Source: a virus (Duplodnaviria > Caudoviricetes). From it: a stretch of 64,000 nt of DNA. Within the stretch, counting starts at the first letter, position 1. Each line of letters starts with the position of its first letter. The notes beneath the pieces are model-generated. The model was given only the letters and a program-made list of their open reading frames with translations, did not search any database and had not been told where the DNA came from. The translations under genes were made by a program, and so were the position numbers. Positions 3,001 through 41,755 of the stretch are shown here, piece by piece. The DNA lies in the IMG/VR virus record IMGVR_UViG_3300043021_000113. The stretch is one strand, 5' to 3'.

Positions 3001-4015
3001 TAAAAATGGAACATTAGTTATTGAATCAATGGTTCAACATTTAACAAATACAGGTTTAATTGATCCGCAAATTAACTTTGCAAACAAAAAAGTTGTTTAT
3101 AAAGACTCGGAAGGTAACGAATATTCGGCAGATTTAAATTCTAATGGTAAAATATCAAACGCTGTTATTACTAAGCCAAAAGACACAGAAGAAAAGAAAC
3201 CAGTTGTTGATGAGAAAAAAGAAGTAGATTTTGATAATAAAGAAGCTTTAAATATATTTAACAATGTTTATAAAACATCTGATTTTGAAGAAGTAATATA
3301 CAATAGAATTGATGATTTATATTTAAATTCTGAATATAACATCGAACAATTAACAGATGATTTGTTAAAACAAACAAAAATTGATCTTAGAGATGAGATA
3401 ATTTCTGAAATGAGAGAAGAAATAAACCGTAAAGGATTAAGTCAAGATTTAATAAACAGTGATGTTATAAATAAAATTGATGAATTTATTAATAATTCTG
3501 TTGATGATTTATTAAATAATTTTAAATCTGAAAAAGCAAGACATAAACGACTTGGAGACGAAACAGAACAACACATTTTAAATAAATATTCTGGCTTTAT
3601 AAATGCAGCTATTGATCAAGCTTTAGGTGATGCAACATTAGATGAAAATTTCCTAAAAAACATTGATAAAATAACTGAAACAATAACTAATGAAATATTA
3701 GAAACTAAATTTTCTGCGGAAGATTCAAGAACATTAGGAAAAGTTATAACTGATGAAATGATCGCAATTTCTAAAAATTATCAAGACGACACATATGTTC
3801 TCGATGAAGCAATATATGATAGCGTTTATGCATTTATACATACCAACCTTGAAAACAAAACAGAAAGAGGCAAGATGTATCAAAATATTTTAGTAAATTT
3901 GCAAAATGCAAAGACATTTAACGATGTTAAATCGCTTTATGAAGAAGCATTAAGAATCGGAAAAGAAAATGACTTTGAAATTGAAGTTGAAAATAAATTA
4001 AAAGAATTATGTTGA
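2..4015 (+). CDS. Giant virion/ejection-associated protein, 5'-truncated by the window, with SF1 helicase C-terminal motifs
   Basis: Frame is open from position 2. Motifs VQGSEFDYV and LLSRAKFG resemble SF1 helicase motifs V and VI. Lies directly upstream of the RNAP gene. Confidence 0.6.
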   Translation, partial: NVIKSPIIEYSMRSGSLVQKHNADTVRALSKTMHYLQVGDVSSQIRNILAEAKKWNQDIVLKNIQTENLFRGCKMGQTADDVKAFIDFLKKNGTDMKSVAIIYDEESDYLFDQIKDYNPDIIKIKRDEVQGSEFDYVICTSDIKNPSTDLRADNGLTSAREFLSYTKKINTLLSRAKFGTIFTGKNDFTVQQVERDTNLVFDKDKSQEFRDVRIKALDESLGEYKPEKAEVKTEETTTEDRKGEGKERLPNKTELEVSNELGETKGVTLDQPIEAQERGACTFNKKAHGYTQFSNFGFKHNITYDENGQLVLNITKQPSKSQINKKFYLDLSNYLDKTVYTGNEAETMRLKMKDYEAKRKFIIDQMINSDMKQSELDAFLKEQIKEIKDLKLGDSFDGVYDGVEVLLTDKTDADLNCEAGSQDTVKVGDKMIRIAIKLKNGNFNPSTGKTVETKPTYIVLATVNQEEFKNQNSTMFASMEQDLKKNGFATRKVSADAFRPAGIHTYIMPKTGARVSLREYMDSPEYKVISKPYIFTGKDDHLKSITESGSFAEIREKLEAYQGLNGRPVVFISKRAKGNEASEMDIDKMALDFINDRIDNKTNTEVNMVVLQPNSYKKFSDFRNAYMKEIVSIRAFDNKAEKAKRLDSFASKYMGLSILEEIYAFKAAMDQFGAKTLRYAKKESMSWEQKVKTLKDTLNNAGINVTEAEAKQLMFDYNTIDDICSFMSKIYFLDYKNINGNYVVTYKGEDRTAEMVINGELDKNKKERSVLYDKYYSAENCYGFDFVSILSTLCSIARPSKADHANQQCFESYVAAIKKRIDETGETIIKENFFDEAKNLQYWLPALDRVLSTDNKVRTSRFYGEGKGFQYRPTFKGKGNSDTNYVEFADENGGLIYDNLYINDAIVCSQRFHLDLENGVLTDVQYAEKKANENKILEQKKEQLRNSILLQLPLLSEADNKNIENSFQTKPYEEFVKDVEKIIKNSANIKNDLSIYKAEVKNGTLVIESMVQHLTNTGLIDPQINFANKKVVYKDSEGNEYSADLNSNGKISNAVITKPKDTEEKKPVVDEKKEVDFDNKEALNIFNNVYKTSDFEEVIYNRIDDLYLNSEYNIEQLTDDLLKQTKIDLRDEIISEMREEINRKGLSQDLINSDVINKIDEFINNSVDDLLNNFKSEKARHKRLGDETEQHILNKYSGFINAAIDQALGDATLDENFLKNIDKITETITNEILETKFSAEDSRTLGKVITDEMIAISKNYQDDTYVLDEAIYDSVYAFIHTNLENKTERGKMYQNILVNLQNAKTFNDVKSLYEEALRIGKENDFEIEVENKLKELC

Positions 4016-4016
4016 T

Positions 4017-7000
4017 ATGATTTGCGAAGGATTAAACCCTTTTATGGCTTTACGTTTAGATAAGTTCGTAAAAGAAAATAATTTACAAGACAAACCAAGT
4101 AGAGAGATTTTCCAATCTCTCTCTGGTTTTATAAAAACACAATTTGGTTATGACGTAGATTTAAGCAACGATTTTTCGGAGCTTAACAGTCTAGTTGGAA
4201 ATATAATGAATTTGTCTGAATTAATAGAAACAGAAGATAAAACAGACGAAGAAGACGATTTCGTAATAACTGATGAAAAATTAAAAGATGAAGGAATAGA
4301 AGGTGACGCTATAGAAGGCACAAAAAATGAAGATTCCGAAGAATTAAACAAAAAGAAAACTCTTATTATTAAACCAGCACGCGTAGTGACAGTGTCAATA
4401 AATGATGATATAGAAACGCCACAAGATATTTTAAGAGTTTATTTTGGCGATAATACGACTCAGTATAATATTTTTAAAAATGGTTTTATAAGAGATATTA
4501 TCCAGCGTTCAATAATTAATTTTAAAACTGGAAACGAAGGTGTGATAAAGTCAAGTGATGACATACAAAGCAACATTGAACGTTATTATGGAGAAAATAT
4601 AAAAATACTTACTGATACTTTAGGGATAACTTATAGTGAAAGAAGAGATCTTATCCCTTATTTATTAGGAAACACAGATCTTGCCAATTCTTCGAATTAC
4701 GAAGTTAGAGGAGCTTATATTAAAGTAAAATATTTTAATAAGCTTATTTCTTCCATTTATAGGGATTATCTCCCAATTTCGGAAAAAAACGGTAATTATG
4801 AGCTTTTAAGAAAACATAAACAAAAAAACAATTATTCTGATTCTTTGGTAAATTTGTTTGATGAAGTCCCAAAAATTGTTAATTCAGTAATTAATAGTAT
4901 AAACATAATTGATCGTAACGGAAAGTTAATTGATACAAAATACATGAATACCGTTACCGCTTCAATGACAATGACTAATATTAAGGAAGCGGACATTTTA
5001 AAAACAAATTCAAGAGAAGATATAGAAGAAACAATGCGAGAATCAATGGTTGCTATATTAACAAGTGACCATTTAAGAGGTAAATTTGTAAGCGATCTTG
5101 ACAATATAGTTACACTTTACAATTATTTTTTTAAGCTTGACAATGACACTATAGATCTTAAATATAAAAACCCAGAAGTTACCTCTCTATTACAAATTAA
5201 ACTTAGAGATTATCAAGGTTCAAATATTCAAGACAACATAATTCATAACGCATTTAATGCTTTAGTTAACAAATCAGTTAGTCAATCATACGTTAGCTTA
5301 GAAAAAAACATTGAAGGATTATATGACCGAATAGAAATAAAAGCGAGAATAGTTGATAATTACATGTTTCAATTGAAAAAATCACTTGACGGTTACATTT
5401 TCAATGCTAATTTTGACAATGAATATCAAGCTAAAGTTGGAGATTATAATTTTTCGGTTGATGGTCCAAATGGTAATATAAGAGTAAATAGTGGACACGT
5501 TACACCATCAAAAGCCATGTTTTCTAAAGCAGAATTCCCAACTGGTGAATGGTGGAATAATCCAGAAGCGTTACCATCTAATCAACGCATGGTTTATGAA
5601 ATGTTAAAAGTTGTTAAAGATCTAACACAAATCGACACTATAGGTTATGAAGGAGAAATTTTCAAAAACCTTAGAATAACTGATCTTAGCGAATTTTTAT
5701 ATTCGGCTTTTGAAGTGGCAAGCGCAACATCTATGTATACCAAAAAGCAAAAGGCTTTAAATGACATGGACGAAATAAACAAAAATAAAATTCTAAACAA
5801 CGAAGCTGTAAGAAAAGTTACTTCTGGTTATAAATACGTTCCATTTTCTAAAGGATCTTTGGATAAAAAATACATGCCGTTTATTTCTAAGTTATCTGAC
5901 GCTCAAATGATAGCAAACGGAGAACAATTCAAATCTATTTCTAGAGATTTAGCGGGAAATGGACAACCGAATTCTTCTATTATTAATTTAATAGGTGATA
6001 TTCAAAATGCCATTAAAGATGCATCAAAAACTAATAATAGAAATTTAATAGCAGAAAATCAACAACTCATAAAATCTGTTACTTATAGAGCAGATGTTAT
6101 GGATGAAAACGGAAAAGTAAAATCTCACAAGAAATTTAACGCTGGAGAAATTACTTATCAAGCTATATTTCATGATTTTATAATGAATCTTAAAAATGGC
6201 TTCGTTGAAATGGAGCCTACCGTTTATGCTGATAAATTCGGTCAAGCAATGTTAAGAATTGACATAAATTCTGACTTAAGAGTTAATGGTATAAATAGAG
6301 GTTCAATTAAAAAGCTTTTAGCTGATCCACACGCAATGTCTCAAATATATTTTGAAACAATGCAAGCTCAATATAAAGCAATTTATGATAGGCTAATAAA
6401 TGACTATTCAATAATAATGGAGCGTCCAGTTAATAGCTTACAGGCTATCGATCAATTTTTAGCTGGACTTGATGTAAGCCTTTATGATTACGTAAAGAAT
6501 AAAAACATAAATATTGATATTCAATCTTTATTCCATTTTCAAGGGAGACCTGGAAATCAAAGCTTAAATAGACTTATTCTTCAAAAAATGGTTGAATATG
6601 GAGTTATTGGTGAAAGAGACAATAAAGCGTTTTTATCTAAAATGAAAAGAGAAGATAAAAAGTTTGCTTATATGTTCGACAAATACGCTCCAAAAATAAC
6701 CGTTGTTGATGAAGTAGGAGAAATTACAGCTGAGTTTAACGCTATAGTTGACAATTATTTTGAAGCTGTTTTTGGAGAAAAAAGCAAGAAAAAACTTACT
6801 GAAGAATATTTGAACGATTGGATAAATGAAGCTGGACAATTAGTACCTTATAAATTAAAAGCAGGGAATAATAAAGCTCTTGATAGAGAAATAAATTATT
6901 ATGATATATTCAAAGAAGGAACAACTGTTGAGCTTAACCCTTTATTTAGAGCTGTTCAAGATACACATAGGCTAGTAATAAATAACTTTAATCAATTAAT

Positions 7001-10000
7001 AAATGGAGGAGCTTTTGCTCATGCAATAAAAACCGATTTTATAAAAGAAGAAAAAGGTTTTAAAAATGACCATAACGCTTCTCAATATATAAAAACAAAT
7101 GATGAATTAGAAGATTACATAAATAATGCTTCTTCTGATTCTATAGAGTCAGCACATGTGTCAGCCATGTTTAAACGTATGGTTAACATGCAAGCAAAAA
7201 TACATACGTTCACGCAAGGATTAATAACTGGTATTCCAAAACACGCAAAAATGATGGTTATGAAAGACTTTAGCAAGAAAGTTTGGAATGCAGCAGGAGT
7301 TATTAAAAATCTAGACACAGACGATGGTTCTGGTTATTCTCCAGGTGTTGCTAATGTTCTTTATCAATATAGCTTAGGAGATTTTAGAAATGACACCTCA
7401 AGCTTAAAATTAATTAGACACGCAACAGATGCAGACACACAAGTTGCAGAACTTGACAAATACGCCGTACAAATAGCAACTAATCAAGCTTGCAGACAAT
7501 CGGAAGCTTCAAAAAGGCCATTTTCTGAACTTCAAAATGCGATGTTATCTGCAATTAAATTTAATGAAGTTTTCCCAGAAGGAACAACAAATTTAAATAT
7601 TCTTGATTATTTATACGAAGGAGACGGAAGACATTTAAAAGTTGAAAACTTACAAGAAGCAATACTTAATTATACAGATTTTGCAGAAGACAACGAAGCA
7701 GAAAATAACCCAGAAGTTGAAAAATTACTACCTAATGTTTTAAGAAATAGAAACATAGCTTACAGTAGAAATGGAGAAAATGTTTATAACCATTTAATGG
7801 GTATTACTTATTTACAAGAAACCGGAGGTTATGCTTTATTATATAAAGCAACCGATATTGCAGGAAAAGATGTTGACACTTTTGAATCAAACACTGTTCA
7901 ATTACCCAATGGTTATTTTGTTAAAGTAATAAATGGTGACACATTGCTTGATTGGTTCAATGCTTTTGGTGGTATTTACTCAGTAGATGCTAAAACAAAA
8001 GAATTTAACGATAACAGCAATTATGCTTTAGCTGATCTTATAAATAACGTTATAATTAAAAAGTCAAATTTTAATATTGCAGCAATTCAAGCTGTTTCTC
8101 CTTGGGAAACAATGCCTAATAAAAACTTAGGAATAATTAATCAAGCCAATTATTATCAACCTTTAAAACATGCTCTAATTTATCAAGTTAACAATACAAC
8201 TGGAATGAAAAATGGAGCAAAGAATATTAATAACAATTGGCTTAAAGGTAACAATCGTTGGTTTGTAACTGATACTTCTTATTTTGGAGTACAAGGAAAT
8301 TTTGACCATAAATTCGATGATGAGGATGAAGCAAGAAGTACTGAATCTTCGCAGATGATCCTTGCAGCTCAAATTAACGGTTATAAATTTAACAATGTAG
8401 ATAAGCTTTACAAAGCACTTAGTAAAGTAATACAATATACAGCTAAAAATGAAATTGAAGCATCAATGGATGGAAAATCAGCTGAATTTTTAGCTAGAAA
8501 AGTAACTGAACTTATCGGTGAAAAAGAAAGAATAGGACTTGCTCAATCTTGGAATGATAAAGTAATTCGTGAGTGGGAAGCTGAAGGCTTAGAAGTTAAT
8601 TATAAAAATTTAGCAAGTAAACAAGCTTTCAGCGATCCAAATTTCTTTAATGTTATTGTTTCTTCTTTATCTTCTGCTATTAATAGAGGAGCAATTAGAA
8701 GAGACATGTCCGGTATAGCAGCAATTCTTGCTCCTGGTGAAGATTTAATAACTGTTGTTGACACAATAGATGATAACGGAAAACCGAGAATTTCTATGTC
8801 AAATGATATGTTAGCAACACTTAGAGCTAAAATAAACAAAGATCCAGAATATAAAGATAACATAGCCAGAGATCTTGCTTATCAAGACGCTTTACAAGCT
8901 TTTCGAGAAGGACGAAATCCTTTATCTGAAAAAACACCAGTTCCAAGAATAACTGCTTATGGTATTTATCAAGCAAATATAATGCTTGAAGATGGAAGAG
9001 CTATTTCAAAGCAATTTGAAGTAACAGATCCTAACATGTATTATAATATACAAAGAGGAAATTTAAATGCTGCTTTTAGTGATATATTAGCAATTGATGA
9101 TAAAGTAGCAAGTGTTGAGTATTTCAAATTATCAAGAACACCTAGAAATTTATTAAGTCGTCATTGGGTGTTTAACGCTGAAAATGGCGCTACTTATTGC
9201 GATTTAGATTTAAGCAGTGCTTATGATTTATTATTAAAACGTAAAGAATTAGGCAATAAAAACTCACCAGAGGATGAACAAAGAATAAAAAGTGAAATTG
9301 CCAGTCTTGAACAAGAACAACAAAGACAACTTGACGAAATAGAAAAAACAGGAATTTTAACTCTTCCTGATGGAACACAACTTAGAGGAACTCTTGAACG
9401 TAACGCAGGAGAAATTATAATGCCTGCTTATATGGCTACCAAATATGGCTTAAAAGAAGGAATGAGCCTAAATGACGTTAACAGAGAATTTTTCAAAAAT
9501 AGATATGAAAAATTCAATAATAAAGTTGCAAGAGGTGCAGAATATGCGTTTTTATCTGGAGAAGGTAAACATGTAAACGTTGTTGAAAGTTTGGATAATG
9601 TAAATTACAAAAAAGCAACTAAACTTGAAAATGTAAATGGTTACTTTGTAAATAAGAATGGATCTAGACTTTACGAAGCAATAAACAACAATCAAGAAAT
9701 GTTCATTGTTGATGGTCAAGTATTTTTAGTTTCAGATGTAAGAGATGCTTACAAATTTTTTAATAATAACAATTTTGCAGAAGTAAGAGCAGTTAATGAC
9801 ACACCAGCTACTCAATCTTACATGCAAACTTACGCTAAGCGTTCTTATTATTATTTTAAAAATAATCGTAGAAATTATCTTGAATTATTGTTTAATGATT
9901 ATTTAGATAAGGTCGAAGCCTCTTTTAATCAATCATTAAAAGTAATGGGTGTTCGTATTCCATGTCAAGCTTTGCAGTCAATAATGGCTATGAAAGTTGT

Positions 10001-10073
10001 TGGGTTTATTGAAGAACATTCAAACAGAGCTTATGTTCCAATTAAAAAGAATTGGATCGATGGAAGTGACTTT
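4017..10073 (+). CDS. crAss-like virion two-barrel RNA polymerase, exon 1 (spliced product about 3142 aa)
   Basis: 2024-aa ORF containing RIPCQALQS and ending WIDGSDF. Joining 10073 to 10365 restores GSDFDIDK, the DFDID catalytic motif of crAss-like RNAPs. Confidence 0.88.
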
Positions 10074-10364
10074 TGTATAAATAAAAAATAATGGAAGTCG
10101 TAAAATCGCGTGAACTGCGGGAAACTCCTTAGAGCTTTTTTATACTAACTTATGGTAGAAATATACATAAGGGCTGAACTAATCACTCAGAGATAGTAAA
10201 AAGTAAAAAAGATTGGACAATCCGCAACCAAGCGTCCAGTAATGGATGAAGGCTCACAGACTATCCTTTTATGGAGTAGGGGCGAAAGCTTCGAAGTGCG
10301 CGACACTAATTAAAAATTAGTGATGATATAGTCGAGCTTTACGTGAAAACGTAGAGGGTAACTG
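10074..10364 (+). ncRNA. Group I intron (291 nt, no ORF) in the RNAP catalytic motif
   Basis: 5' exon ends in U. P1 pairs GACTTT with GAAGTC including a U.G pair. P/Q elements ACTGCGGGAA and AATCCGCAA; P7 GACTA and TAGTC; terminal G at 10364; splicing is in frame. Confidence 0.9.
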
Positions 10365-30811: not shown

Positions 30812-31178
30812 TTTCTTTTTCTGGCTTATAGGTAAATTTATAAACAGAATTTAAAGTTTTAAATTCTCCTGTTGTGTCACTTGTCCATTTAAAATCATTT
30901 ACTGTTGAAGTGTTAAACCATTTTGTGGCATTTTCTATACGAACACCTAATCCTTTAACTATACCATAAGAAAAACCACTAACAGTAAAACCATTTTTAA
31001 TTAATTTTTGATTTACTCCAGATTCTTTAGTTATTGTGTAAATTCCAGGTTTTCCTTCTTTATACATTTCAGCGATTGAATCTTGCATTTCATTTAATAA
31101 TTCTTGAAAATGCTCTAAATCTCCAATATTAACCTTTAAAATTTTATCCATGATATAATCTTTTTTATAATTAAACAC
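30780..31178 (-). CDS. Hypothetical protein
   Basis: ORF track; C-terminal F.TLNSVYK motif. Confidence 0.6.
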   Translation of the reverse strand: MFNYKKDYIMDKILKVNIGDLEHFQELLNEMQDSIAEMYKEGKPGIYTITKESGVNQKLIKNGFTVSGFSYGIVKGLGVRIENATKWFNTSTVNDFKWTSDTTGEFKTLNSVYKFTYKPEKESEVKDGISDN

Positions 31179-31897
31179 TTTTCAAATTTATTCATAATGT
31201 CTTTTTTATCATTTGTTATTCCTGACAAAAAATTTTCTAATAAATCAAGTTTCGTGAACTCTTGTTTATCTCCTAAATAATATGTGCTGTCTCTATCAAC
31301 ACAAAAATTAATATAAGTTGATATTGCATCTTTAGGAGAAACTTTAATTTTTCCAGAATCGTTCAAATAAAACTCGTTTACACATCCTCTCACCCAGGAG
31401 CCTAAATAAGTATCCATCAACTGACGCGAAAGTTTACAATCTTCAAAATTACAAATAAAATTTTTAAAATCATTTGTTTTTTCAAGTAATTTATCAACAA
31501 CCGAATAAGTCAAAATTTCGTCTTCTTCTATTTCTTGACGTTCTAAAAAACTTTCATCATGAGCAATTAAATTTCCATTGTCTTCATTATAAAAAGCCCT
31601 GTAAAATTTAGCAACTGGCTTTTTAATATCTAAAGCATAACAAAAACCCATAACTTCTTTGAAACCTTCAATTTCACTTTTTAATATAGCAAGAATGCTT
31701 ACTTTATTAAAAACAACATCCCAGTTTTCACGAGAACCTGTCAATTGATCCGGAGTTTGAACATTTATAATGAACTTTTCTGTTAGTGGCTCTAATTTCT
31801 CAATAAAAGGTTTACAATATTTTTCAGAATTGAAATATTGTTTATTTTTAATTATTGTTGCTTTACCAGTGTAAAGTTCTTTAATATTAACTATCAT
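31136..31897 (-). CDS. Hypothetical protein
   Basis: 253-aa ORF coupled to neighbours. Confidence 0.7.
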   Translation of the reverse strand: MIVNIKELYTGKATIIKNKQYFNSEKYCKPFIEKLEPLTEKFIINVQTPDQLTGSRENWDVVFNKVSILAILKSEIEGFKEVMGFCYALDIKKPVAKFYRAFYNEDNGNLIAHDESFLERQEIEEDEILTYSVVDKLLEKTNDFKNFICNFEDCKLSRQLMDTYLGSWVRGCVNEFYLNDSGKIKVSPKDAISTYINFCVDRDSTYYLGDKQEFTKLDLLENFLSGITNDKKDIMNKFEKCLIIKKIISWIKF

Positions 31898-32388
31898 CTA
31901 CTAAGCATTAATAATTGTTTAACTTTTTTTTCTAATAATTCTCCTGAATTTATAACTTCAATTTTTTTTTCAAGATTTTTTACTAAATGTCTTTTTTCTA
32001 TTTTGTTAATTTCACTTAAGGAAAGGTGCATTCTAAATGCAACCTTTCCTGGGTAAGTTTCATTATAAGCTGTTATAAATCTACCTACAATTTGAAACCA
32101 CGAATAAAATTCTAATCTTGAAATGTAATTTATAATCCATCCTGCATTATTAGCAACAATGCTTGAAAAAGAACTATCTTCAAACATAAATTCAGCAATT
32201 ACATTTTTAGGTTTATCTTTGTTTAACTCTGAATGATGAGAAAACATCCTAAATTGAACTTGATTGTTAGATTCAACAAGAATTAATCTATATTTTAAAT
32301 CTTCCAAATCTTCTTCTACAAGTTCAACGTGCCAATCAAACAAAAATAATTTTATTTGATAATCACTTTCGTTATTTGAATAATACAT
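31894..32388 (-). CDS. Hypothetical protein (paralogue of 32388..32828)
   Basis: Shared C-terminal IEK...L...IE.INSGE motif. Confidence 0.65.
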   Translation of the reverse strand: MYYSNNESDYQIKLFLFDWHVELVEEDLEDLKYRLILVESNNQVQFRMFSHHSELNKDKPKNVIAEFMFEDSSFSSIVANNAGWIINYISRLEFYSWFQIVGRFITAYNETYPGKVAFRMHLSLSEINKIEKRHLVKNLEKKIEVINSGELLEKKVKQLLMLSR

Positions 32389-32828
32389 TACATTTTTAAA
32401 TAACTTTCTACTAAACTAGCCATTCTTTCTCCACTGTTTATTTCTTCAATTTCTGCTAATAAATAATCTCTGTGTAAATGCTTTTCAATTTCAGCTATTC
32501 TTTCAATACTTGCCGTTAAAACAAACCCCAAAACTTCTTTAGGGTCTACTAACTCCATATACAAAGTTAACAGATAAAAGAAGCTTTGGCGGTTTGACAT
32601 GGCAAATTTTCTATAAATAGCATTAGTTCTAGCATGATTTCGTATCCCGGTAGTCTTGTCTTTATAAATAAAACAACCAACACCACCAGGAATGGAATTA
32701 AAAATCAACTCAAATCTATCTTTTTTAGGAAAAAAGCTTGTGCAATGATTATTTAAGTATTTAGCAGGAAATTCTAAGTAAAATTCAGTGTAATTTGATA
32801 AAAGAATTTCAAGATCGTTAATGTGCAT
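32388..32828 (-). CDS. Hypothetical protein
   Basis: 146-aa ORF with the IEEINSGE motif. Confidence 0.65.
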   Translation of the reverse strand: MHINDLEILLSNYTEFYLEFPAKYLNNHCTSFFPKKDRFELIFNSIPGGVGCFIYKDKTTGIRNHARTNAIYRKFAMSNRQSFFYLLTLYMELVDPKEVLGFVLTASIERIAEIEKHLHRDYLLAEIEEINSGERMASLVESYLKM

Positions 32829-33423
32829 CTTTAAATCTTAAATTTGTTAATACTTTTCCATTATATTTAAAACATCTTGGGCCATTATAATTGTTAGAAT
32901 TATTTTTTAAATTTTTAGGTGTAAATTCTTTTGCAAATCCAGACATACTATAAATTTTATCTTTATATTTTATTTTTGATTCATTATAAACTTCTACTTC
33001 TAAATTATTATGAATAAAATTTATTTTATCTCCTGGTTTTAAACCAACCATTGAAAATTTAAAGTCTGAATTTCTTTTTGTTTTTGAATCATAATTTGAA
33101 TTTTTAAATTTGCATTTTTCAATGTAACCATCAGCTGTTAATTCTACAAGTTGTTTTAATAATTCGTAAGCATCTTTTGCTGGATATTTGAAAAACTCCC
33201 TATTTGTTCTTGTTCTTGTATCAGTAAGTTTCGTTAATATATCATGAATTGTTTTTTCTATTTCGTTAAACTTATAAGTATAAGCGTAACCGTAAATTTC
33301 AAAAGGAGTTGGAGTTGATGTATTGTCAAGCTCTTTTACTCGTTCTTCAATAGGTCTTGATGTTTTCCCTATTTTTATATCCTCAAAAGATGGATTAATT
33401 AATATATAAACGTAACCATGCAT
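32818..33423 (-). CDS. GIY-YIG (T5orf172-type) nuclease fused to a RAMA-like domain
   Basis: GYVYIL...IKIGKT...R...L...PTPF...E...H...REFF. C-terminus GLKPGD...YSMSGFA...NGP..F...L.NLR resembles RAMA. Confidence 0.72.
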   Translation of the reverse strand: MHGYVYILINPSFEDIKIGKTSRPIEERVKELDNTSTPTPFEIYGYAYTYKFNEIEKTIHDILTKLTDTRTRTNREFFKYPAKDAYELLKQLVELTADGYIEKCKFKNSNYDSKTKRNSDFKFSMVGLKPGDKINFIHNNLEVEVYNESKIKYKDKIYSMSGFAKEFTPKNLKNNSNNYNGPRCFKYNGKVLTNLRFKDAH

Positions 33424-33920
33424 TACTTAAATTTATTAATTAAGTTATTTATTTTTTGTTGTACAATAGGCTTTATTGTTTCGTGCATATATTCAAAATC
33501 AATATCTCCAGATTCTGTAATTGGAAGTGGTATATATTGTTTTTTAAGTCTAGCTAAACCAGCTGCTCTACCATAACAATACCTTGGTACAAGATAACTA
33601 CTCATAATTGCTGCAATATACATTGCGCAATAATCACTAATTATTTTTATTTTAGGTTTTGCAATTACTACATGACAATTAACACCGAATTTGTAATTAT
33701 GCCATCTTGTAACTCCAGGTTTTCCATCTTTTGCAATAGTAAATAAATTTTCTCCAGCTAAATTATCTGTAAAACCACCATGTCCATTGTTAAATTCTGT
33801 TGCAGTTATTTGAGGATATTTTCCTTTTTCTGATATATTACCTGTTCCATTTTTAAGATCAAATAAATCCATTAAAAGAAATAATCCACAAGATCTATTA
33901 TTATATACTATTTTTTTCAC
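33423..33920 (-). CDS. R-M specificity subunit, single TRD (copy 2)
   Basis: DLFDLKNG, YPQITAT..NNG, Y.YGR, IPLP...G.IDFEYM, as in BcgIB-like S subunits. GTG start. Confidence 0.8.
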   Translation of the reverse strand: MKKIVYNNRSCGLFLLMDLFDLKNGTGNISEKGKYPQITATEFNNGHGGFTDNLAGENLFTIAKDGKPGVTRWHNYKFGVNCHVVIAKPKIKIISDYCAMYIAAIMSSYLVPRYCYGRAAGLARLKKQYIPLPITESGDIDFEYMHETIKPIVQQKINNLINKFK

Positions 33921-34458
33921 ATTTATTAATATTTATGTTATTTTCATTATTTATAAAATTACAATTTAAACTATTTTTTATTTTATTTATTTTTTCTTGC
34001 ATTAATGGTCGTATTATAGATTCCATATAATCAAAATCTATTTTTTCATTTTCTGTAATTGGTAAAGGAATTTCTTGTTTTTTTAATCTTGCAACATTAG
34101 CAGTTCTACCATAAGAATACCTAGGTTTTAAATAAGAACTAATAATTGCTGCCATATACATTGCTTGATAATTATTATCTATTTTATTTTTAGGAATTAA
34201 AATAACAATATTTGAAGTTGCAGAAAATTTATAATCATGCCAAAAAGTAGCTCCACCATCACCTACTGAAACAACAGTAAAACAATTTTCATAATCTTCA
34301 GAATCAGTTTTACCACCTATTCCATTATTTTTTGTTGTAGCTGTTATTAATGGATATTTTCCTTTATCAGTTATAACTCCTTTTCCCTTTTTAATTTCAA
34401 ATAAACTTGAAATTAAAAATAATCCACAAGCTCTATTATTATATACAATTTTTTTCAT
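33901..34458 (-). CDS. R-M specificity subunit, single TRD (copy 1)
   Basis: LFEIKKG, YPLITAT.KNNG, YSYGR and IPLP...IDFDYME motifs. Confidence 0.8.
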   Translation of the reverse strand: MKKIVYNNRACGLFLISSLFEIKKGKGVITDKGKYPLITATTKNNGIGGKTDSEDYENCFTVVSVGDGGATFWHDYKFSATSNIVILIPKNKIDNNYQAMYMAAIISSYLKPRYSYGRTANVARLKKQEIPLPITENEKIDFDYMESIIRPLMQEKINKIKNSLNCNFINNENNININKCEKNSI

Positions 34459-36305
34459 AAATTAGCGTTTATTTGAGATAAAACGATAATTTCAAGTTCT
34501 TTTTTTAAATCATTTCCTATATCATCTTTTGGTAAATAACACCAATCATCATTTCCAATTTTTCTAAAATTAGATTTATTAGTAATTTTTCTATTATCTA
34601 TTATATCTATTATTTCATCATATAATTTCTGTACATTTTCAGTTGGTTTACGTATATTATCTGAAACATAGAATCCATCGTCACTATAATCAACACAAAA
34701 TACTTGATGGTTAGTTGTTACTGTTTCTCCTACTGTAAATACAAATATAGATGTATTAACAGCTGCACTTGGTTGAAATAAATTATCAGCAACTTTAATT
34801 ATCATATCAAGTCTATTATTCTTTAATATTTCATTTCTAAGTTCACTAACAATTTTATTATCATTAAGACCACAACTCATAGGTACAATTGCTGCCATTT
34901 TAGCTCCTTTTGGAAGATATTTTATAGTTTCAATAACAAAAGACCATTCATGCATTTTCTTGTTTTTAGTTCCTTTCATCATTGAATATGGAGGATTTAA
35001 AATGCCAGCTGTAGGTTGAGTTTTTTTTATCTTATCTCCTACTTCGTAACAATCACCATATATTAAATTATCAGTAGAAATATTATTAAACGAAAAATTT
35101 GCAAATGCTAAAAAATACATATGTTGTAATAATTCAACTGCAATATAACCTTCTTGTAATTTTTCTTCATCTTCTTTTGTTTGACATAAACTTTTTTTAC
35201 GATTAAAAGTTTCTACAGGAAAAGCTCCAGTACCAGTACAAAGATCAAGAATAACATCTTGTGCATTATTTACTACTATATGATTCATTAATCTTGTTAT
35301 ATGATAAGGAGTTAAAACTACTCCACAATCTTTACCATCAGATTTAGTATATCTTAAAAATTCATTATATAAAATACTTGATATATCAATTTTTTTGTCT
35401 TTATATTTATTTTCTAATGGAATTAATATTTCATGTAAAATAAAAGAACAAATAAATTTAGGTAAACTCATTGTATCAATTCCAGTTTCTGAATAATTAC
35501 TCATATATTGTTTATAAGGAACAGTAGCTGAATTATTAATTGATAAACGAGATTGATCAAATCTTGATATTGAACGTTTCACATTTTCTTGAACTTCTAT
35601 TTTATGATAAGCAATTGTTTGTATTATTGCATTATATATATAACGTGAAAAATCAATATCTTTAATTTTTCTATTAACAAGATTGTTTCTGAAATCAATA
35701 CATTGTATTGACATTATACAAGCAGTCAATAAATCTATTTTATCAGATGCTGCAATGCCTGCATGATTTCTTACTCCTTCATGTAATATTCCAATTTTAG
35801 ATTTAATTTCTAACTCTACTATATGATGAATACTATTATTTTTATTAACTTTAGTTTTATTAATTATAACATCTAATGCATAATTTAAATAATCAAGTAT
35901 AGAGTCATTAGTATTTTTCTTATCTATATATTGTATTTCTTCTTCTTCGTCTAAATAAAAACAAGCTATTTCTATTTCTGTTTTACTTAAACCAAAAACA
36001 TTAACACCAAATGGTTTAATTCCAGTTTTTAAAGTTTCTAACATATAATCTTTAAGTTGAGCTTTAGCTAAAGATTTTGTTTTATTGTCATTATCAACTT
36101 TTACTTCAGCTATTAACTGCATAGGCATTTCATCAGATTTAAGACAAACATCAGATATAGAATCTGGACGTTTACCTTTTAAATTTGAAACTTGGCGAGT
36201 ATATCTATTGCCGTTTTCTTGTTTAGCTAATTTTTCCCAAGTATTAATTATTTTAAAGAAATTATCTTCAACTTGAGATTCATTAAATTTATTAATTTTT
36301 GCCAT
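34455..36305 (-). CDS. Fused restriction endonuclease / N6-adenine methyltransferase (BcgIA-like, type IIB/IIG)
   Basis: N-terminal RPD...AEVK...QLKDY nuclease motifs; GVVLTPYHIT; motif I LDLCTGTGAF; motif IV NPPY. Confidence 0.87.
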   Translation of the reverse strand: MAKINKFNESQVEDNFFKIINTWEKLAKQENGNRYTRQVSNLKGKRPDSISDVCLKSDEMPMQLIAEVKVDNDNKTKSLAKAQLKDYMLETLKTGIKPFGVNVFGLSKTEIEIACFYLDEEEEIQYIDKKNTNDSILDYLNYALDVIINKTKVNKNNSIHHIVELEIKSKIGILHEGVRNHAGIAASDKIDLLTACIMSIQCIDFRNNLVNRKIKDIDFSRYIYNAIIQTIAYHKIEVQENVKRSISRFDQSRLSINNSATVPYKQYMSNYSETGIDTMSLPKFICSFILHEILIPLENKYKDKKIDISSILYNEFLRYTKSDGKDCGVVLTPYHITRLMNHIVVNNAQDVILDLCTGTGAFPVETFNRKKSLCQTKEDEEKLQEGYIAVELLQHMYFLAFANFSFNNISTDNLIYGDCYEVGDKIKKTQPTAGILNPPYSMMKGTKNKKMHEWSFVIETIKYLPKGAKMAAIVPMSCGLNDNKIVSELRNEILKNNRLDMIIKVADNLFQPSAAVNTSIFVFTVGETVTTNHQVFCVDYSDDGFYVSDNIRKPTENVQKLYDEIIDIIDNRKITNKSNFRKIGNDDWCYLPKDDIGNDLKKELEIIVLSQINANL

Positions 36306-36472
36306 TTTATACTATAAATATTATAATTCTTTTTCATCTTATCTAAAGTTTAATATCTATTTTTAATGACTATCTATAGGTTTTTATATATTAACTAAAT
36401 TTAAAATTAACGTGTTTTCAAGGTATAGATTAAAAAGTAACTAATTATTATTATTTATTTAGATGTTAGAAT

Positions 36473-36988
36473 TTATTTATTATTATAATTAACAAAATTT
36501 TCTGCTTTTATATATTTAGAAGGACATTCAGGACATGCATATATGCAAGCATAAGCTTTATTTGATCCTTCAAATATTAAAGACATCATTGTATTATTTT
36601 TTAATAAAGTATTTAATAATTTAAAATTATTTCCAGTTAAAATCATTTTACCTTTAATTATTTTTGTATTAAATGTATATTCATCATTTGAAATTGGAGT
36701 TTTAATTATTACATTAAAATAATCATTTACTTCTTTTTCTTTATTATTTTTTTCTTTAAATGTTATTTCATAAAATTTATCATAATAACGAATAATTATT
36801 AAACAATCATTTTCTTTTCCATTTCTTTCTATACATGTTCCAGCTATAGGGAAAGATGTTCTTCTTTCATCTGATGGCGAACCATCTTCATTTATTCTTG
36901 CTTCAAATTCCCATTGTAAATCTTTATCTTACGCTTTAACACTAATTATTGTAAACAAAAATAAAGTACTTACTAAAAATTTTTTCAT
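36473..36988 (-). pseudogene. Signal-peptide protein interrupted by an in-frame TAA at codon 20
   Basis: MKKFLVSTLFLFTIISVKA*DKDLQWEF..., then open for about 150 more codons. Confidence 0.7.
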
Positions 36989-37025
36989 CTTATCTAATGT
37001 TTTATTATCTATTAATAAATTTTAT

Positions 37026-37559
37026 TTATTGACTAACTTTATTTTCAGTCTGAGTTTTTAAAGTTCTATTTGTAAAATTCACAGAATCTTTAAGTTCTTT
37101 AAGAAGTTTTACTTCTTCAATTGAAGCATGTTCTGATGAATCTTTAACATCACTTAATTTTTGATTCAGATTGAAAATTCCTGTTTTATTTTCTCTTATC
37201 AGCAACTCTAGATCATAAATTCTGTTTGATATATCGTTAAACTCTACTGAATGATCTTTTGTTAATAATTCAATTTTAGATTGACTCATTCCAATTGCTC
37301 TAACATTATTTTTTATTTCGTCAATCTTTCCATAATTATTATCTGTTGCTTTAATATTTTTTAATTCTTCACTTATTAAATAAAGCTTAGAATTAATTTC
37401 AGTTGAGGTGTTGAGTGTTCTTGTGAAACTCAAACTAAGATCATAAAGGTCTAAAGATTGTTTGTCTAATAGACCATTAATTGCTTTTAATTTTTTATTT
37501 ATATAAACAAAAAAGCAAAGACCAGAAAATGCAATCACTGCTAATGTTAAAGATCCCAT
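37026..37559 (-). CDS. Membrane-anchored coiled-coil protein
   Basis: N-terminal TM helix and heptad-rich body. Confidence 0.65.
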   Translation of the reverse strand: MGSLTLAVIAFSGLCFFVYINKKLKAINGLLDKQSLDLYDLSLSFTRTLNTSTEINSKLYLISEELKNIKATDNNYGKIDEIKNNVRAIGMSQSKIELLTKDHSVEFNDISNRIYDLELLIRENKTGIFNLNQKLSDVKDSSEHASIEEVKLLKELKDSVNFTNRTLKTQTENKVSQ

Positions 37560-40942: not shown

Positions 40943-41755
40943 TCACTTCCAGATTTTTTCTGTGTTTTCGATAGTCGTTGAGCACAAATTTAAATTATGG
41001 TAAATTTTATAAATTTGATTTTTAAAATCATTTATATTATAATCAATTTTCATATAATTGCACATAGGACAACATGACACACAATTTCCAGGTATATATC
41101 CTTTATTTGGATTTATTCTATCAATTCCATTGGTAGGTAAAGCTTCTTCTTTAAATCTTGTTTTAACCCAATCTCTCATTTGTGGTTTATTACCACAATA
41201 ATAGCAATTTCCATTAATGAGATTTTTTACTTCTTCTTTTGATAGTTTAAATTCAATTTCTCCACGTCTTTTTTCTGCTATAATTTTTTTACTATAATCA
41301 TTATAAAATCTAGTATAAAAATCTCCAGCTTTTATGCCTTTTTTCCCTGTACATTTATTACATCCGTCGCCTTTAATATTTAAAATTTGGGCTTTATACT
41401 TCATATGAATATCACCACATTTTTTACATTGAACAACGAATTTTGTATGATTTTTTAATCTTTTACAATCTATAACTTTATAGGCTTTATTTTCATATCC
41501 TACAAATTTTTTTGCTTTTTTTGGTTTTTCTTGCTTAGTTCTTGTTACAACAAGTTTTTTTAAACATCCAGTACAAGATGTTTGCTTGTATTTTTTAATT
41601 TCACCCATACTTTTTACAAATTCTTTACCGCAATAAATGCATTTACATTTATAAGCTGTACTATGGGGTCTTTTTTCTCTTTCTATTTCTAAAACCTCAA
41701 AACAATTAATAATTTTTCCAATATATTGGCTTATAGATTTATTAACTTTCTCCAT
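40943..41755 (-). CDS. Intron-encoded HNH (His-Me finger) homing endonuclease
   Basis: CxxC ribbons; CYYCG...NGIDRINPNKGYIPGNCVSCCPMCNYMK; C-terminus runs into the intron core (CSTTIE). Confidence 0.88.
   Translation of the reverse strand: MEKVNKSISQYIGKIINCFEVLEIEREKRPHSTAYKCKCIYCGKEFVKSMGEIKKYKQTSCTGCLKKLVVTRTKQEKPKKAKKFVGYENKAYKVIDCKRLKNHTKFVVQCKKCGDIHMKYKAQILNIKGDGCNKCTGKKGIKAGDFYTRFYNDYSKKIIAEKRRGEIEFKLSKEEVKNLINGNCYYCGNKPQMRDWVKTRFKEEALPTNGIDRINPNKGYIPGNCVSCCPMCNYMKIDYNINDFKNQIYKIYHNLNLCSTTIENTEKIWK

What the first reader, a model, noticed from the sequence alone, without database searches (positions are those of the whole stretch)
32818..36305. Phage-encoded BcgI-like R-M operon coupled to a GIY-YIG-RAMA (putative m6A-reader) nuclease
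Seen: four overlapping genes, visibly more AT-rich than their flanks: a fused REase-MTase with intact-looking PD..EVK and NPPY motifs, two single-TRD S genes, and a T5orf172-type nuclease with a RAMA-like C-terminus. Established: phages commonly carry orphan MTases, but complete R-M-S sets are uncommon in lytic phages, and RAMA domains are associated with modified-adenine recognition. Inference: a dual weapon that cuts unmethylated and differently methylated DNA (host chromosome or co-infecting phages) while marking self.
Basis: partly seen in the sequence, partly recalled or inferred. Interest (0 to 1): 0.75.

Follow-up and report, generated by a model that had tools for sequence, protein, structure and literature searches.

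The report
Phage restriction-modification cassette with accessory nuclease
A large uncultured gut phage carries an intact-looking BcgI-type restriction-modification system with two half-size specificity genes and a small GIY-YIG nuclease of a kind often found inside bacterial restriction operons. Every part is a known type, so this is a new setting rather than a new kind of system.

Summary
Four overlapping minus-strand genes encode:
- a 616-aa nuclease-methylase fusion with PD48...E67-x-K69, DLCTGTG and NPPY motifs;
- two single-TRD specificity proteins, 59% identical to each other;
- a 201-aa T5orf172/GIY-YIG protein.

The nuclease's C-terminal domain has the RAMA fold. The only two solved RAMA domains are its best matches among 48,161 chains (CcrM Z 8.6-8.9, MPND Z 7.0-7.6). 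No sequence model of RAMA detects it.

The whole 201-aa protein matches PADLOC's untested candidate PDC-S57. In bacteria its family sits directly beside Type I hsdR or hsdM in at least a quarter of 80 loci. In one Bacteroidales locus it sits beside a BcgIA-like gene followed by three tandem half-size S genes.

The four genes plus one upstream ORF form a low-GC3 island (0.05-0.11 against 0.17 in neighbouring genes). This suggests they were acquired together.

BcgI-like systems in phages are already known (Sau42I of staphylococcal phage phi42). RAMA fused to T5orf172 was described in 2015.

The "m6A reader / dual weapon" reading is not supported. Solved RAMA domains bind the DNA backbone, and 6mA made no difference to MPND binding.

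The scan has seen GIY-RAMA passengers in bacterial Type I operons before. Verdict: a new member or variant of known kinds, of moderate interest.

The parts
34455..36305 (-). RM gene (616 aa). It fuses an N-terminal PD-(D/E)XK nuclease, an HsdM-type helical domain and a gamma-class N6-adenine methyltransferase, as in BcgI subunit A.
   Evidence: Pfam N6_Mtase covers residues 306-588. PADLOC REase_MTase_IIG models hit, and PDLC03608 covers residues 49-534. In the AF2 model (pLDDT 83), residues 160-600 match HsdM structures at Z 25-30, and BsaXI RM aligns over residues 3-573 at Z 22. Full-length relatives exist at 28-38% identity.
36099..36167 (-). Nuclease motif P47-D48 ... E67-V-K69
   Evidence: E67 and K69 are invariant in 8 relatives and nearly invariant in 74. 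The motif aligns with PE...E(D/C)K of staphylococcal-phage bcgIA and of a Bacteroidales BcgIA-like protein. BcgI Glu53 belongs to this motif, and E53A abolishes cleavage (PMC3592470).
35226..35246 (-). AdoMet-binding motif I, D-L-C-T-G-T-G (residues 354-360)
   Evidence: D354, C356, G358, T359 and G360 are invariant in 74 homologues.
34986..34997 (-). Catalytic motif IV, NPPY (residues 437-440)
   Evidence: Invariant in all alignments.
33901..34458 (-). S1: half-size specificity subunit (185 aa, one TRD plus a helical conserved region and an Asn-rich tail)
   Evidence: Pfam Methylase_S E 8.5e-19. PADLOC Specificity_II PDLC03591. 59% identical to S2 over 164 aa with no gaps.
33423..33920 (-). 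S2: a second half-size specificity subunit (165 aa, GTG start) and tandem paralogue of S1
   Evidence: Pfam Methylase_S E 3.9e-10. A stand-alone 169-aa orthologue with its own ATG exists in another metagenome (P0215, 68% identity). S1 and S2 differ at 67 non-synonymous and 24 synonymous codons.
33112..33423 (-). GIY-RAMA protein, N-terminal T5orf172/GIY-YIG nuclease domain (residues 1-104)
   Evidence: Pfam T5orf172 scores 48.5 bits (cut-off 20) and MUG113 51.3 bits. The fold matches Slx1 at Z 8.0 and HIGLE at Z 7.9. The residues invariant in the 26-sequence alignment are all present: Y6, K17, G19, R28, E31, H60, R75, E76.
32821..33084 (-). GIY-RAMA protein, C-terminal RAMA-fold domain (residues 114-201)
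   Evidence: VIA-align gives CcrM C-terminal domain 6pbd at Z 8.9 (82 aa, 2.6 A) and MPND RAMA 7ydw/7ydt at Z 7.6/7.2. The next fold, SAND, scores 5.5. The order is the same across 48,161 representative chains. ESM Atlas neighbours carry RAMA. No hit comes from the Pfam RAMA or DUF4357 models or from a profile search of PDB sequences.
32818..37005 (-). Low-GC3 island: GIY, S2, S1, RM and the upstream interrupted secreted-protein ORF
   Evidence: GC3 is 0.109, 0.090, 0.048, 0.076 and 0.046. The flanking genes are at 0.231 (32388-32828) and 0.135 (37026-37559), and 30 neighbouring genes average 0.174 +/- 0.039.
36330..36354 (-). First copy of a 25-nt direct repeat (ATTAAACTTTAGATAAGATGAAAAA), 25 nt upstream of the RM start. 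The second copy lies at 36981-37005, at the start of the upstream ORF.
   Evidence: The copies are 92% identical, and the core TTAGATAAGATG occurs in these two places only in the 112-kb genome. Function is unknown. It could be a local promoter or leader, or a recombination scar.

Best explanation
This is a horizontally acquired cassette in the replication-gene block of a large uncultured phage.

Its core is a BcgI-type (Type IIB-like) restriction-modification system. The 616-aa RM protein carries both the PD-(D/E)XK nuclease and the N6-adenine methyltransferase. The DNA-recognition module is not the usual two-TRD S protein. It is assembled from dimers of two paralogous half-size S proteins, giving an (RM)2(half-S)2 complex.

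By inference, the complex methylates adenines in bipartite sites on replicating phage DNA. It would cut unmethylated DNA of the host, rival phages or plasmids near those sites without ATP. S1-S1, S2-S2 and S1-S2 dimers could give up to three specificities.

The fourth gene encodes a small GIY-YIG nuclease tethered to a RAMA-fold, probably sequence-independent, DNA-binding domain. It belongs to the PADLOC candidate family PDC-S57. That family commonly rides inside adenine-methylase R-M operons, and here it arrived with the cassette.

The nuclease's role is inferred only. It is most likely an accessory or independent DNA nuclease of the same conflict module, not a proven m6A reader.

Shown here: gene structure, motifs, folds, family membership, genomic associations and the compositional island. 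Inferred: complex stoichiometry, activity, targets and biological role.
For: RM domains and motifs. BcgI E53 lies in the same motif (PMC3592470).

In 19 of 20 viral-contig loci that hold a relative, the RM gene is followed by, or fused to, an S gene with no motor gene between them. The same bcgIA/bcgIB layout occurs in staphylococcal phages.

Half-S proteins: both are Methylase_S, 59% identical to each other, with a stand-alone orthologue P0215. Engineered half-HsdS proteins dimerise into active, palindrome-recognising enzymes (PMC6158711).

GIY-RAMA: full-length PDC-S57 match at E 3e-49, with folds. Among 80 bacterial loci, hsdR is directly adjacent in 21 and hsdM in 14. The order hsdR-GIY-hsdM-rhuM-hsdS is seen in L026 and L022. 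Locus L121 has GIY, then a BcgIA-like gene, then three half-S genes.

Sequence relatives of the C-terminal domain are fused to HSDR_N, GmrSD, Mrr_cat, helicases and MTaX1.

All four genes and the upstream ORF share unusually low GC3, while overall codon usage matches the phage at r 0.89-0.94.
Against: No activity data of any kind exist, and the recognition site is unknown.

The N-terminal nuclease domain could not be folded and searched by itself. Residues 21-61 have low pLDDT.

The genomic context of the closest RM, S and GIY relatives (P0002-P0007, P0122, P0123, P0215) could not be fetched. Conservation of the four-gene order in sister phages is therefore unknown.

None of the 20 viral BcgI-like loci carries the GIY gene. 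Only 1 of 80 bacterial GIY loci has a BcgI-like neighbour. The pairing with a Type IIB system is therefore sporadic.

S2 starts with GTG inside S1, and no S2 entry appeared among the S1 hits in the protein collection.
Confidence: 0.6

Rival explanations
1. The GIY-RAMA protein is an m6A-reading, modification-dependent nuclease. Together with the R-M system it forms a dual weapon against both unmethylated and differently methylated DNA.
For: RAMA was named for its association with adenine methylases and restriction nucleases, and was predicted to discriminate m6A. T5orf172 fusions are listed in that paper (PMC4738411). The family is adjacent to hsdM/hsdR and to one BcgI-like gene.
Against: In the CcrM and MPND structures RAMA contacts the DNA backbone without base contacts, and 6mA did not increase MPND binding (PMC9963953). 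An m6A-dependent nuclease encoded beside an m6A methylase would threaten self DNA unless it were motif-selective. 55 of 80 family loci show no detected Type I gene within 8 kb. No sequence model of RAMA matches.
Confidence: 0.12
2. The GIY-RAMA gene is a functionally independent passenger. It would be a stand-alone defence or offence nuclease, or a selfish homing-type endonuclease, that merely shares islands with R-M genes.
For: PADLOC files the family as a single-gene candidate. Neighbours in other loci include Schlafen/AlbA, an SF1 helicase with DUF2726, PLD nucleases, and also housekeeping genes. None of 20 viral BcgI-like loci has it. T5orf172 domains are common in phage mobile nucleases (established knowledge).
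Against: The position is fixed and co-oriented between hsdR and hsdM, with gaps of 4-30 nt or overlaps, in many species. It shows the same tight overlap and the same low GC3 as the R-M genes here. It recurs beside a second R-M type in L121.
Confidence: 0.25
3. S1 and S2 are one two-TRD S gene split by a frameshift at the A7 run. It would be either a pseudogene or one repaired by A7-to-A6 slippage to make a 345-aa BcgIB-like subunit.
For: S2 lies in the +1 frame and overlaps S1 at GTGAAAAAAATAG. Loss of one A would fuse them. Full-size S genes of 320-370 aa follow the RM gene in distant relatives.
Against: The A7 run is just the Lys-Lys-Ile codons of the duplicated N-terminus MKKIVYNN. It is also present at the S1 start. 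There are 70 runs of 7 or more A/T in the window. S1 and S2 are 59% identical along their whole length, unlike the two halves of ordinary S subunits, per established knowledge of HsdS. P0215 is a stand-alone 169-aa orthologue of S2 with its own ATG. A Bacteroidales BcgI-like locus has three tandem half-S genes.
Confidence: 0.07
4. The system serves mainly as a protective methylase that lets the phage evade host restriction. The nuclease half would be inactive or irrelevant.
For: Phages commonly carry methyltransferases for anti-restriction (established knowledge). The low-confidence loop at residues 21-61 of the model covers part of the nuclease domain.
Against: P47, E67 and K69 are nearly invariant in the 74-sequence family alignment, and the D/E at position 48 is kept in all eight closest relatives and in the BcgIA-like proteins. 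A methylase alone would not need the nuclease domain. This subclade keeps the N-terminal domain at full length.
Confidence: 0.1

Closest known systems
BcgI (Type IIB; BcgIA 637 aa plus BcgIB 341 aa) and its phage-borne relative Sau42I of Staphylococcus phage phi42 (bcgIA/bcgIB also in phiSabovST1)
   Same: One polypeptide carries an N-terminal PD...ExK nuclease and an NPPY adenine methylase. A separate HsdS-type specificity gene lies immediately downstream. There is no ATPase motor. It is carried by a phage (PMC3592470).
   Different: Identity to the staphylococcal-phage proteins is only about 27%, and only over residues 166-560. Specificity is encoded by two half-size paralogous genes instead of one two-TRD subunit. 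The host is a large phage with a replication-module setting, not a 40-50 kb temperate siphovirus. A GIY-RAMA gene is attached.
BsaXI (Type IIB, cryo-EM structures 8w0p and 8w2p; (RM)2S)
   Same: The overall architecture is shared: nuclease, then HsdM-like helical domain, then methylase. The model aligns to BsaXI RM over residues 3-573 at Z 22. BsaXI has a canonical PD-(D/E)xK site in its N-terminal domain (PMC11997821).
   Different: BsaXI RM is about 915 aa and has 'knob' and 'paddle' elaborations that the 616-aa phage protein is too short to hold. No sequence-level hit to BsaXI was found in the PDB search.
PADLOC PDC-S57: T5orf172-RAMA proteins embedded in Type I R-M operons (RAMA architectures of Iyer, Zhang and Aravind 2015)
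   Same: The match to PDC-S57 is full length at E 3e-49. The two-domain architecture is the same, and so is the habit of sitting in adenine-methylase R-M operons. The T5orf172-RAMA fusion is listed in PMC4738411.
   Different: The phage copy is shorter (201 aa against 215-235 aa) and only 41-45% identical to the Bacteroidales, Clostridia and Verrucomicrobia copies. It is attached to a Type IIB-like rather than a Type I system, and it lies at the 3' end of the operon rather than between hsdR and hsdM.
Engineered and natural half-HsdS subunits of Type I systems
   Same: A single TRD plus a conserved helical region. Such halves dimerise to rebuild a full S subunit and recognise symmetric bipartite targets (PMC6158711).
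   Different: Here two diverged halves are encoded in tandem, and they partner a motor-less RM fusion. Heterodimer formation is untested.

Membership tests
Type IIB (BcgI-like) restriction-modification system | A single polypeptide with an N-terminal PD-(D/E)XK nuclease motif fused to a gamma-class N6-adenine methyltransferase (motif I and NPPY) | tested here: met
   P47-D48, E67-x-K69, DLCTGTG and NPPY are conserved and align with BcgIA-like proteins. PADLOC REase_MTase_IIG models hit. The HsdM fold scores Z 25-30, and BsaXI RM aligns over residues 3-573.
Type IIB (BcgI-like) restriction-modification system | A separate HsdS-family specificity subunit carrying two TRDs, in (RM)2S stoichiometry | tested here: inconclusive
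   HsdS-family genes lie directly downstream. However, there are two one-TRD genes of 185 and 165 aa, not one two-TRD gene. Assembly as (RM)2(half-S)2 is inferred from engineered half-HsdS (PMC6158711) and was not tested.
Type IIB (BcgI-like) restriction-modification system | No ATP-dependent motor (HsdR or Res) subunit in the system | tested here: met
   No helicase or ATPase domain is present in the four genes or in the adjacent ORFs on either side (31136-32828, 36473-37559).
Type IIB (BcgI-like) restriction-modification system | AdoMet-dependent cleavage on both sides of a bipartite site, excising a short fragment | not testable with these tools
   Needs enzyme assays.
RAMA domain (Pfam PF18755) | A match to the family's sequence model above its gathering score | tested here: not met
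   No RAMA or DUF4357 hit for the domain alone at E<=10. None for any of 81 family members at E<=1. None appears among the 25 commonest of the 34 families matched by 149 sequence relatives of the domain. A six-frame scan of the phage genome with PF18755 hit only an unrelated spot at 15 bits. A profile search of PDB sequences found neither CcrM nor MPND.
RAMA domain (Pfam PF18755) | The fold of the solved RAMA domains (CcrM C-terminal domain 6PBD; MPND 7YDT and 7YDW) | tested here: met
   Z 8.9, 7.6 and 7.2 over 77-82 residues of an 88-residue domain. These rank first and second for this domain among 48,161 representative chains. The next fold, SAND, scores Z 5.5. ESM Atlas neighbours carry RAMA.
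RAMA domain (Pfam PF18755) | Fusion or operon linkage with restriction-type nucleases and N6-adenine methylases | tested here: met
   Sequence relatives of the domain are fused to T5orf172, HSDR_N, GmrSD, Mrr_cat, PDDEXK_4, helicases and MTaX1. The GIY-RAMA family is adjacent to hsdR/hsdM and to a BcgIA-like gene.
RAMA domain (Pfam PF18755) | Selective recognition of N6-methyladenine in DNA | not testable with these tools
   This was a prediction (PMC4738411). The structural and EMSA work on MPND found no 6mA effect (PMC9963953).
T5orf172 / GIY-YIG nuclease superfamily | A Pfam match above the cut-off, the GIY-YIG fold, and conserved catalytic-core residues | tested here: met
   T5orf172 scores 48.5 bits (cut-off 20) and MUG113 51.3 bits (cut-off 22.3). 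Slx1 matches at Z 8.0 and HIGLE at Z 7.9. The residues invariant in the 26-sequence alignment are retained: Y6, K17, G19, R28, E31, H60, R75, E76.
PADLOC PDC-S57 (phage defence candidate, single gene) | A full-length match to the PDC-S57 profile | tested here: met
   PDLC05041 at E 3.1e-49, residues 2-196 against profile positions 5-203 of 212.
PADLOC PDC-S57 (phage defence candidate, single gene) | Demonstrated anti-phage activity | not testable with these tools
   It is a candidate family only. No paper mentioning PDC-S57 was found.

The most novel reading that the evidence does not exclude
A virulent-type gut phage uses a combinatorial Type IIB system offensively. Two half-S paralogues would give three specificities. 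The phage would mark its own replicating DNA while shredding the host chromosome and rival phages. The attached GIY-RAMA nuclease would be functionally coupled to it, reading methylation state or being released when the R-M complex is inhibited. That would make a two-layer self/non-self module carried by a virus.
Probability: 0.1. Interest if true: 0.7.

Novelty: new member of a known kind. Interest (0 to 1): 0.4.

Why it matters
Complete restriction-modification systems are rare in phages outside temperate ones. This example sits in the replication block of a large, very divergent gut phage. It suggests the phage uses R-M for competition with other mobile DNA, or for host takeover, rather than for lysogen defence.

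The tandem half-size specificity genes offer a natural test of combinatorial target recognition in a motor-less R-M enzyme.

The GIY-RAMA family is widespread in gut Bacteroidales R-M operons and has no tested function. Its recurrence beside two different R-M types makes it a tractable target for finding out what these passenger nucleases do.

None of this changes current classification.

Tried and rejected
**Searches that found nothing useful**
- DNA search of the phage collection with the 5-kb region: no match.
- A single-protein scan of viral contigs with RM found nothing. An alignment-based scan found only relatives at 23-34% identity.
The contexts of the closest relatives (P0002-P0007, P0122, P0123, P0215) could not be read.
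- The only related phage record, MT835470.1, shares few genes and gave no usable synteny around the operon.

**Tests of the C-terminal domain that failed**
- Sequence-level RAMA/DUF4357 tests all failed.

**Other negative or uninformative results**
- NCBIfam gave only a sub-threshold MAD2 methylase hit.
- Promoter and terminator scans were no better than shuffled sequence.
- The repeat upstream of RM is not a genome-wide promoter motif.
- The 146-aa gene downstream of GIY has no detectable relatives or fold.
- The secreted ORF upstream has no Pfam family.
- A small MAFFT alignment of N-terminal fragments misaligned the phage protein. It was replaced by a full-length alignment.

**Rejected idea**
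- The A7 run as a dedicated specificity switch. See the third rival explanation.

Full report
**What is there**

On the minus strand, four ORFs run head to tail with overlaps of 4, 20 and 1 nt:

| Gene | Coordinates | Length |
|---|---|---|
| RM | 34455-36305 | 616 aa |
| S1 | 33901-34458 | 185 aa |
| S2 | 33423-33920 | 165 aa, GTG start |
| GIY | 32818-33423 | 201 aa |

The GIY gene overlaps the next phage gene by 11 nt. Pfam assigns N6_Mtase to RM residues 306-588, Methylase_S to both S proteins, and T5orf172/MUG113 to GIY residues 3-92.

The record is an IMG/VR virus contig of 111,878 bp, CheckV completeness 63%, with no terminal repeat. The operon lies in a same-strand block with DNA ligase, thymidylate synthase, primase, DnaB-type helicase and an exonuclease.

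The giant ORF 4017-10091 ends in GSDF just before a gap. I did not verify that further. Only one distant phage record, MT835470.1 from human faeces, shares genes with this phage. No integrase was found, but the record is incomplete.

**The RM protein**

Full-length relatives at 28-38% identity exist (P0003, P0004, P0006, P0007). A further 70 proteins of about 600 aa share its architecture.

- E67 and K69 are invariant or nearly so, and P47 is nearly invariant.
- D48 aligns with the Glu of PE...E(C/D)K in a Bacteroidales BcgIA-like protein and in the bcgIA gene of Staphylococcus phage phiSabovST1.
- In BcgI itself, Glu53 belongs to this PD...EXK motif, and E53A abolishes cleavage (PMC3592470).
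- Motif I (DLCTGTG) and motif IV (NPPY) are intact.

The AF2 model has pLDDT 83. Residues 160-600 match HsdM structures at Z 25-30. The Type IIB enzyme BsaXI and the Type IIG/L enzyme DrdV align from residue 2-3 onward.

Its nuclease fold therefore rests on the motif, the secondary-structure order and these long alignments.

PADLOC calls the protein REase_MTase_IIG.

**The specificity genes**

In 19 of 20 viral-contig loci that hold an RM relative, an S gene comes next: a separate gene of roughly 280-390 aa in most, and fused to the RM gene in a few. Staphylococcal phages carry bcgIA plus a 333-aa bcgIB.

Here there are two single-TRD genes instead. They are 59% identical over 164 ungapped residues. 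They share the N-terminus MKKIVYNNR(A/S)CGLFL and differ at 67 non-synonymous and 24 synonymous codons.

The A7 run at their junction is the Lys-Lys-Ile coding of that duplicated N-terminus. It is also present at the S1 start. The window holds 70 runs of seven or more A or T.

A 169-aa protein from another metagenome, P0215, is 68% identical to S2 over its full length and has its own ATG. A Bacteroidales BcgI-like locus, L121, has three tandem half-size S genes. Half-size S genes are therefore a stable design here, not a fresh frameshift.

Engineered half-HsdS proteins dimerise into active subunits that recognise palindromic bipartite sites (PMC6158711). By inference, S1 and S2 could give two symmetric specificities and one hybrid.

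**The GIY-RAMA protein**

The AF2 model has pLDDT 82 and shows two domains joined by a disordered linker at residues 107-116.

- *N-terminal domain.* It matches the GIY-YIG nucleases Slx1 (Z 8.0) and HIGLE (Z 7.9). The residues invariant in the 26-sequence alignment are all kept.
- *C-terminal domain.* Residues 114-201 match the C-terminal domain of CcrM (6pbd) at Z 8.9, 82 residues, 2.6 A. They match the MPND RAMA domain (7ydw, 7ydt) at Z 7.6 and 7.2. The next fold, SAND, scores 5.5.
- *Unbiased check.* Against 48,161 representative chains, CcrM is the best hit of the whole model, and MPND is second for this domain.
- *Literature.* CcrM and MPND are the two published RAMA structures, and their sequences are barely conserved (PMC9963953).
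- *ESM Atlas.* Its neighbours point the same way.

Every sequence test failed. These were the Pfam RAMA and DUF4357 models on the domain, on 81 family members and on the phage genome, and a 45-sequence profile against PDB sequences. The domain is therefore RAMA by fold and by context. It is not a member of the Pfam family as currently modelled.

An exhaustive phmmer search with the domain alone found 382 cluster representatives. Partner domains among the best 149 include T5orf172 (54), HSDR_N/HSDR_N_2 (13), GmrSD, Mrr_cat, PDDEXK_4, helicases, MTaX1, HARE-HTH and EVE. This is the restriction-associated repertoire for which RAMA was named, and the original paper already lists T5orf172 fusions (PMC4738411).

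**Is the nuclease coupled to the R-M system?**

The whole protein matches PADLOC's candidate PDC-S57 at E 3e-49. I found no paper mentioning PDC-S57.

Homologues of 215-235 aa at 40-45% identity are common in gut Bacteroidales, Verrucomicrobia (Opitutales, Akkermansia) and some Clostridia.

In 80 species-representative loci, single-sequence searches found Type I genes within 8 kb in 25. hsdR was directly adjacent in 21 and hsdM in 14, co-oriented, with small gaps or overlaps. These counts are a lower bound, because the searches were insensitive and many contigs are cut short.

The usual order is hsdR-GIY-hsdM-rhuM-hsdS. The same arrangement appears in viral or prophage contigs. Given that genomes hold few Type I systems, chance adjacency should be far below 1%. 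That figure is an inference from established knowledge.

In L121 the GIY gene directly precedes a strong BcgIA-like gene (PDLC03602, E 1e-177) and the half-S array.

Against tight coupling:
- The other 55 loci have varied neighbours. Some are defence-like (Schlafen/AlbA, an SF1 helicase with DUF2726, a PLD nuclease) and some are housekeeping.
- None of the 20 viral BcgI-like loci has the gene.

Earlier reports of this scan describe the same passenger in bacterial Type I operons.

**Acquisition**

Total GC of the operon is 24.4%. That is only about 1.4 SD below 3.5-kb windows of the phage. GC3 is much lower:

| Gene or set | GC3 |
|---|---|
| RM | 0.076 |
| S1 | 0.048 |
| S2 | 0.090 |
| GIY | 0.109 |
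| Upstream ORF 36473-36931 | 0.046 |
| 30 neighbouring genes | 0.174 +/- 0.039 (minimum 0.105) |
| Flanking gene 32388-32828 | 0.231 |
| Flanking gene 37026-37559 | 0.135 |

Overall codon usage still correlates with the phage at r 0.89-0.94. The five genes therefore look like one island from an even more AT-rich source, and the nuclease came with the R-M genes.

A 25-nt repeat flanks the upstream ORF (36330-36354 and 36981-37005). Its core occurs nowhere else in the genome.

**Mechanism**

*Shown:* intact motifs, folds, family memberships and linkages.

*Inferred:*
- An (RM)2(half-S)2 enzyme methylates bipartite adenine sites on phage DNA as it replicates.
- The same enzyme cleaves unmethylated DNA near its sites, as BcgI-type enzymes do.
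- The GIY-RAMA protein is a small DNA nuclease held on DNA by a backbone-binding domain.
- Whether the nuclease cooperates with the R-M enzyme, backs it up, or acts alone is open.

The claim that it reads m6A is not supported. In the solved complexes RAMA makes no base contacts, and 6mA did not alter MPND binding (PMC9963953).

**Comparison and verdict**

BcgI-like systems on phages are known. Sau42I of phage phi42 and related staphylococcal phages carry bcgIA/bcgIB. T5orf172-RAMA proteins in R-M contexts are known, and so are half-S subunits.

Three things are new here:
- the setting, in a large divergent gut phage's replication block;
- a pair of half-S paralogues serving a motor-less RM fusion;
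- attachment of the PDC-S57 passenger to such a system, seen in only one other locus.

I rate it a new member of known kinds, bordering on a new variant, with moderate interest.

Noticed in passing
window 36473-36988 (-): An ORF begins with a clear signal peptide (MKKFLVSTLFLFTIISVKA). It hits an in-frame TAA at about 36929-36931 and then stays open for 151 more codons, with no start codon until 36646. It belongs to the same low-GC3 island as the R-M genes. It has no Pfam family. It could be a nonsense-mutated gene, a readthrough case or a sequencing error.
   Followed up: partly
window 36330-36354 and 36981-37005: A 25-nt direct repeat (92% identical, extending to about 35 nt at lower identity) sits just upstream of the RM start and at the start of the upstream ORF. 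Its core TTAGATAAGATG occurs only at these two places in the 112-kb genome.
   Followed up: partly
L121:2202-6393 (Bacteroidales bacterium UBA3724): This bacterial locus mirrors the phage cassette. A PDC-S57 GIY-RAMA gene is followed by a strong BcgIA-like gene (638 aa) and three tandem single-TRD specificity genes.
   Followed up: partly
L026, L098, L100, L106, L109: These Type I operons have the order hsdR-GIY-hsdM-(rhuM)-hsdS. Additional inverted hsdS copies lie downstream, which looks like invertible specificity shufflons.
   Followed up: no
P0217, P0220, P0226: The RAMA-fold domain occurs in 4-5 tandem copies within single proteins of 499-983 aa. It also occurs as stand-alone proteins of 81-130 aa.
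   Followed up: no
window about 3056-3157 (+), inside the giant ORF 2-4015: The only match of the Pfam RAMA model in the phage genome lies here. It is weak (15 bits, E 0.0016, well under the cut-off) and probably chance.
   Followed up: no
window 40943-41755 (-): An HNH / endonuclease VII-like gene lies in the replication block. It is a possible free-standing homing endonuclease.
   Followed up: no
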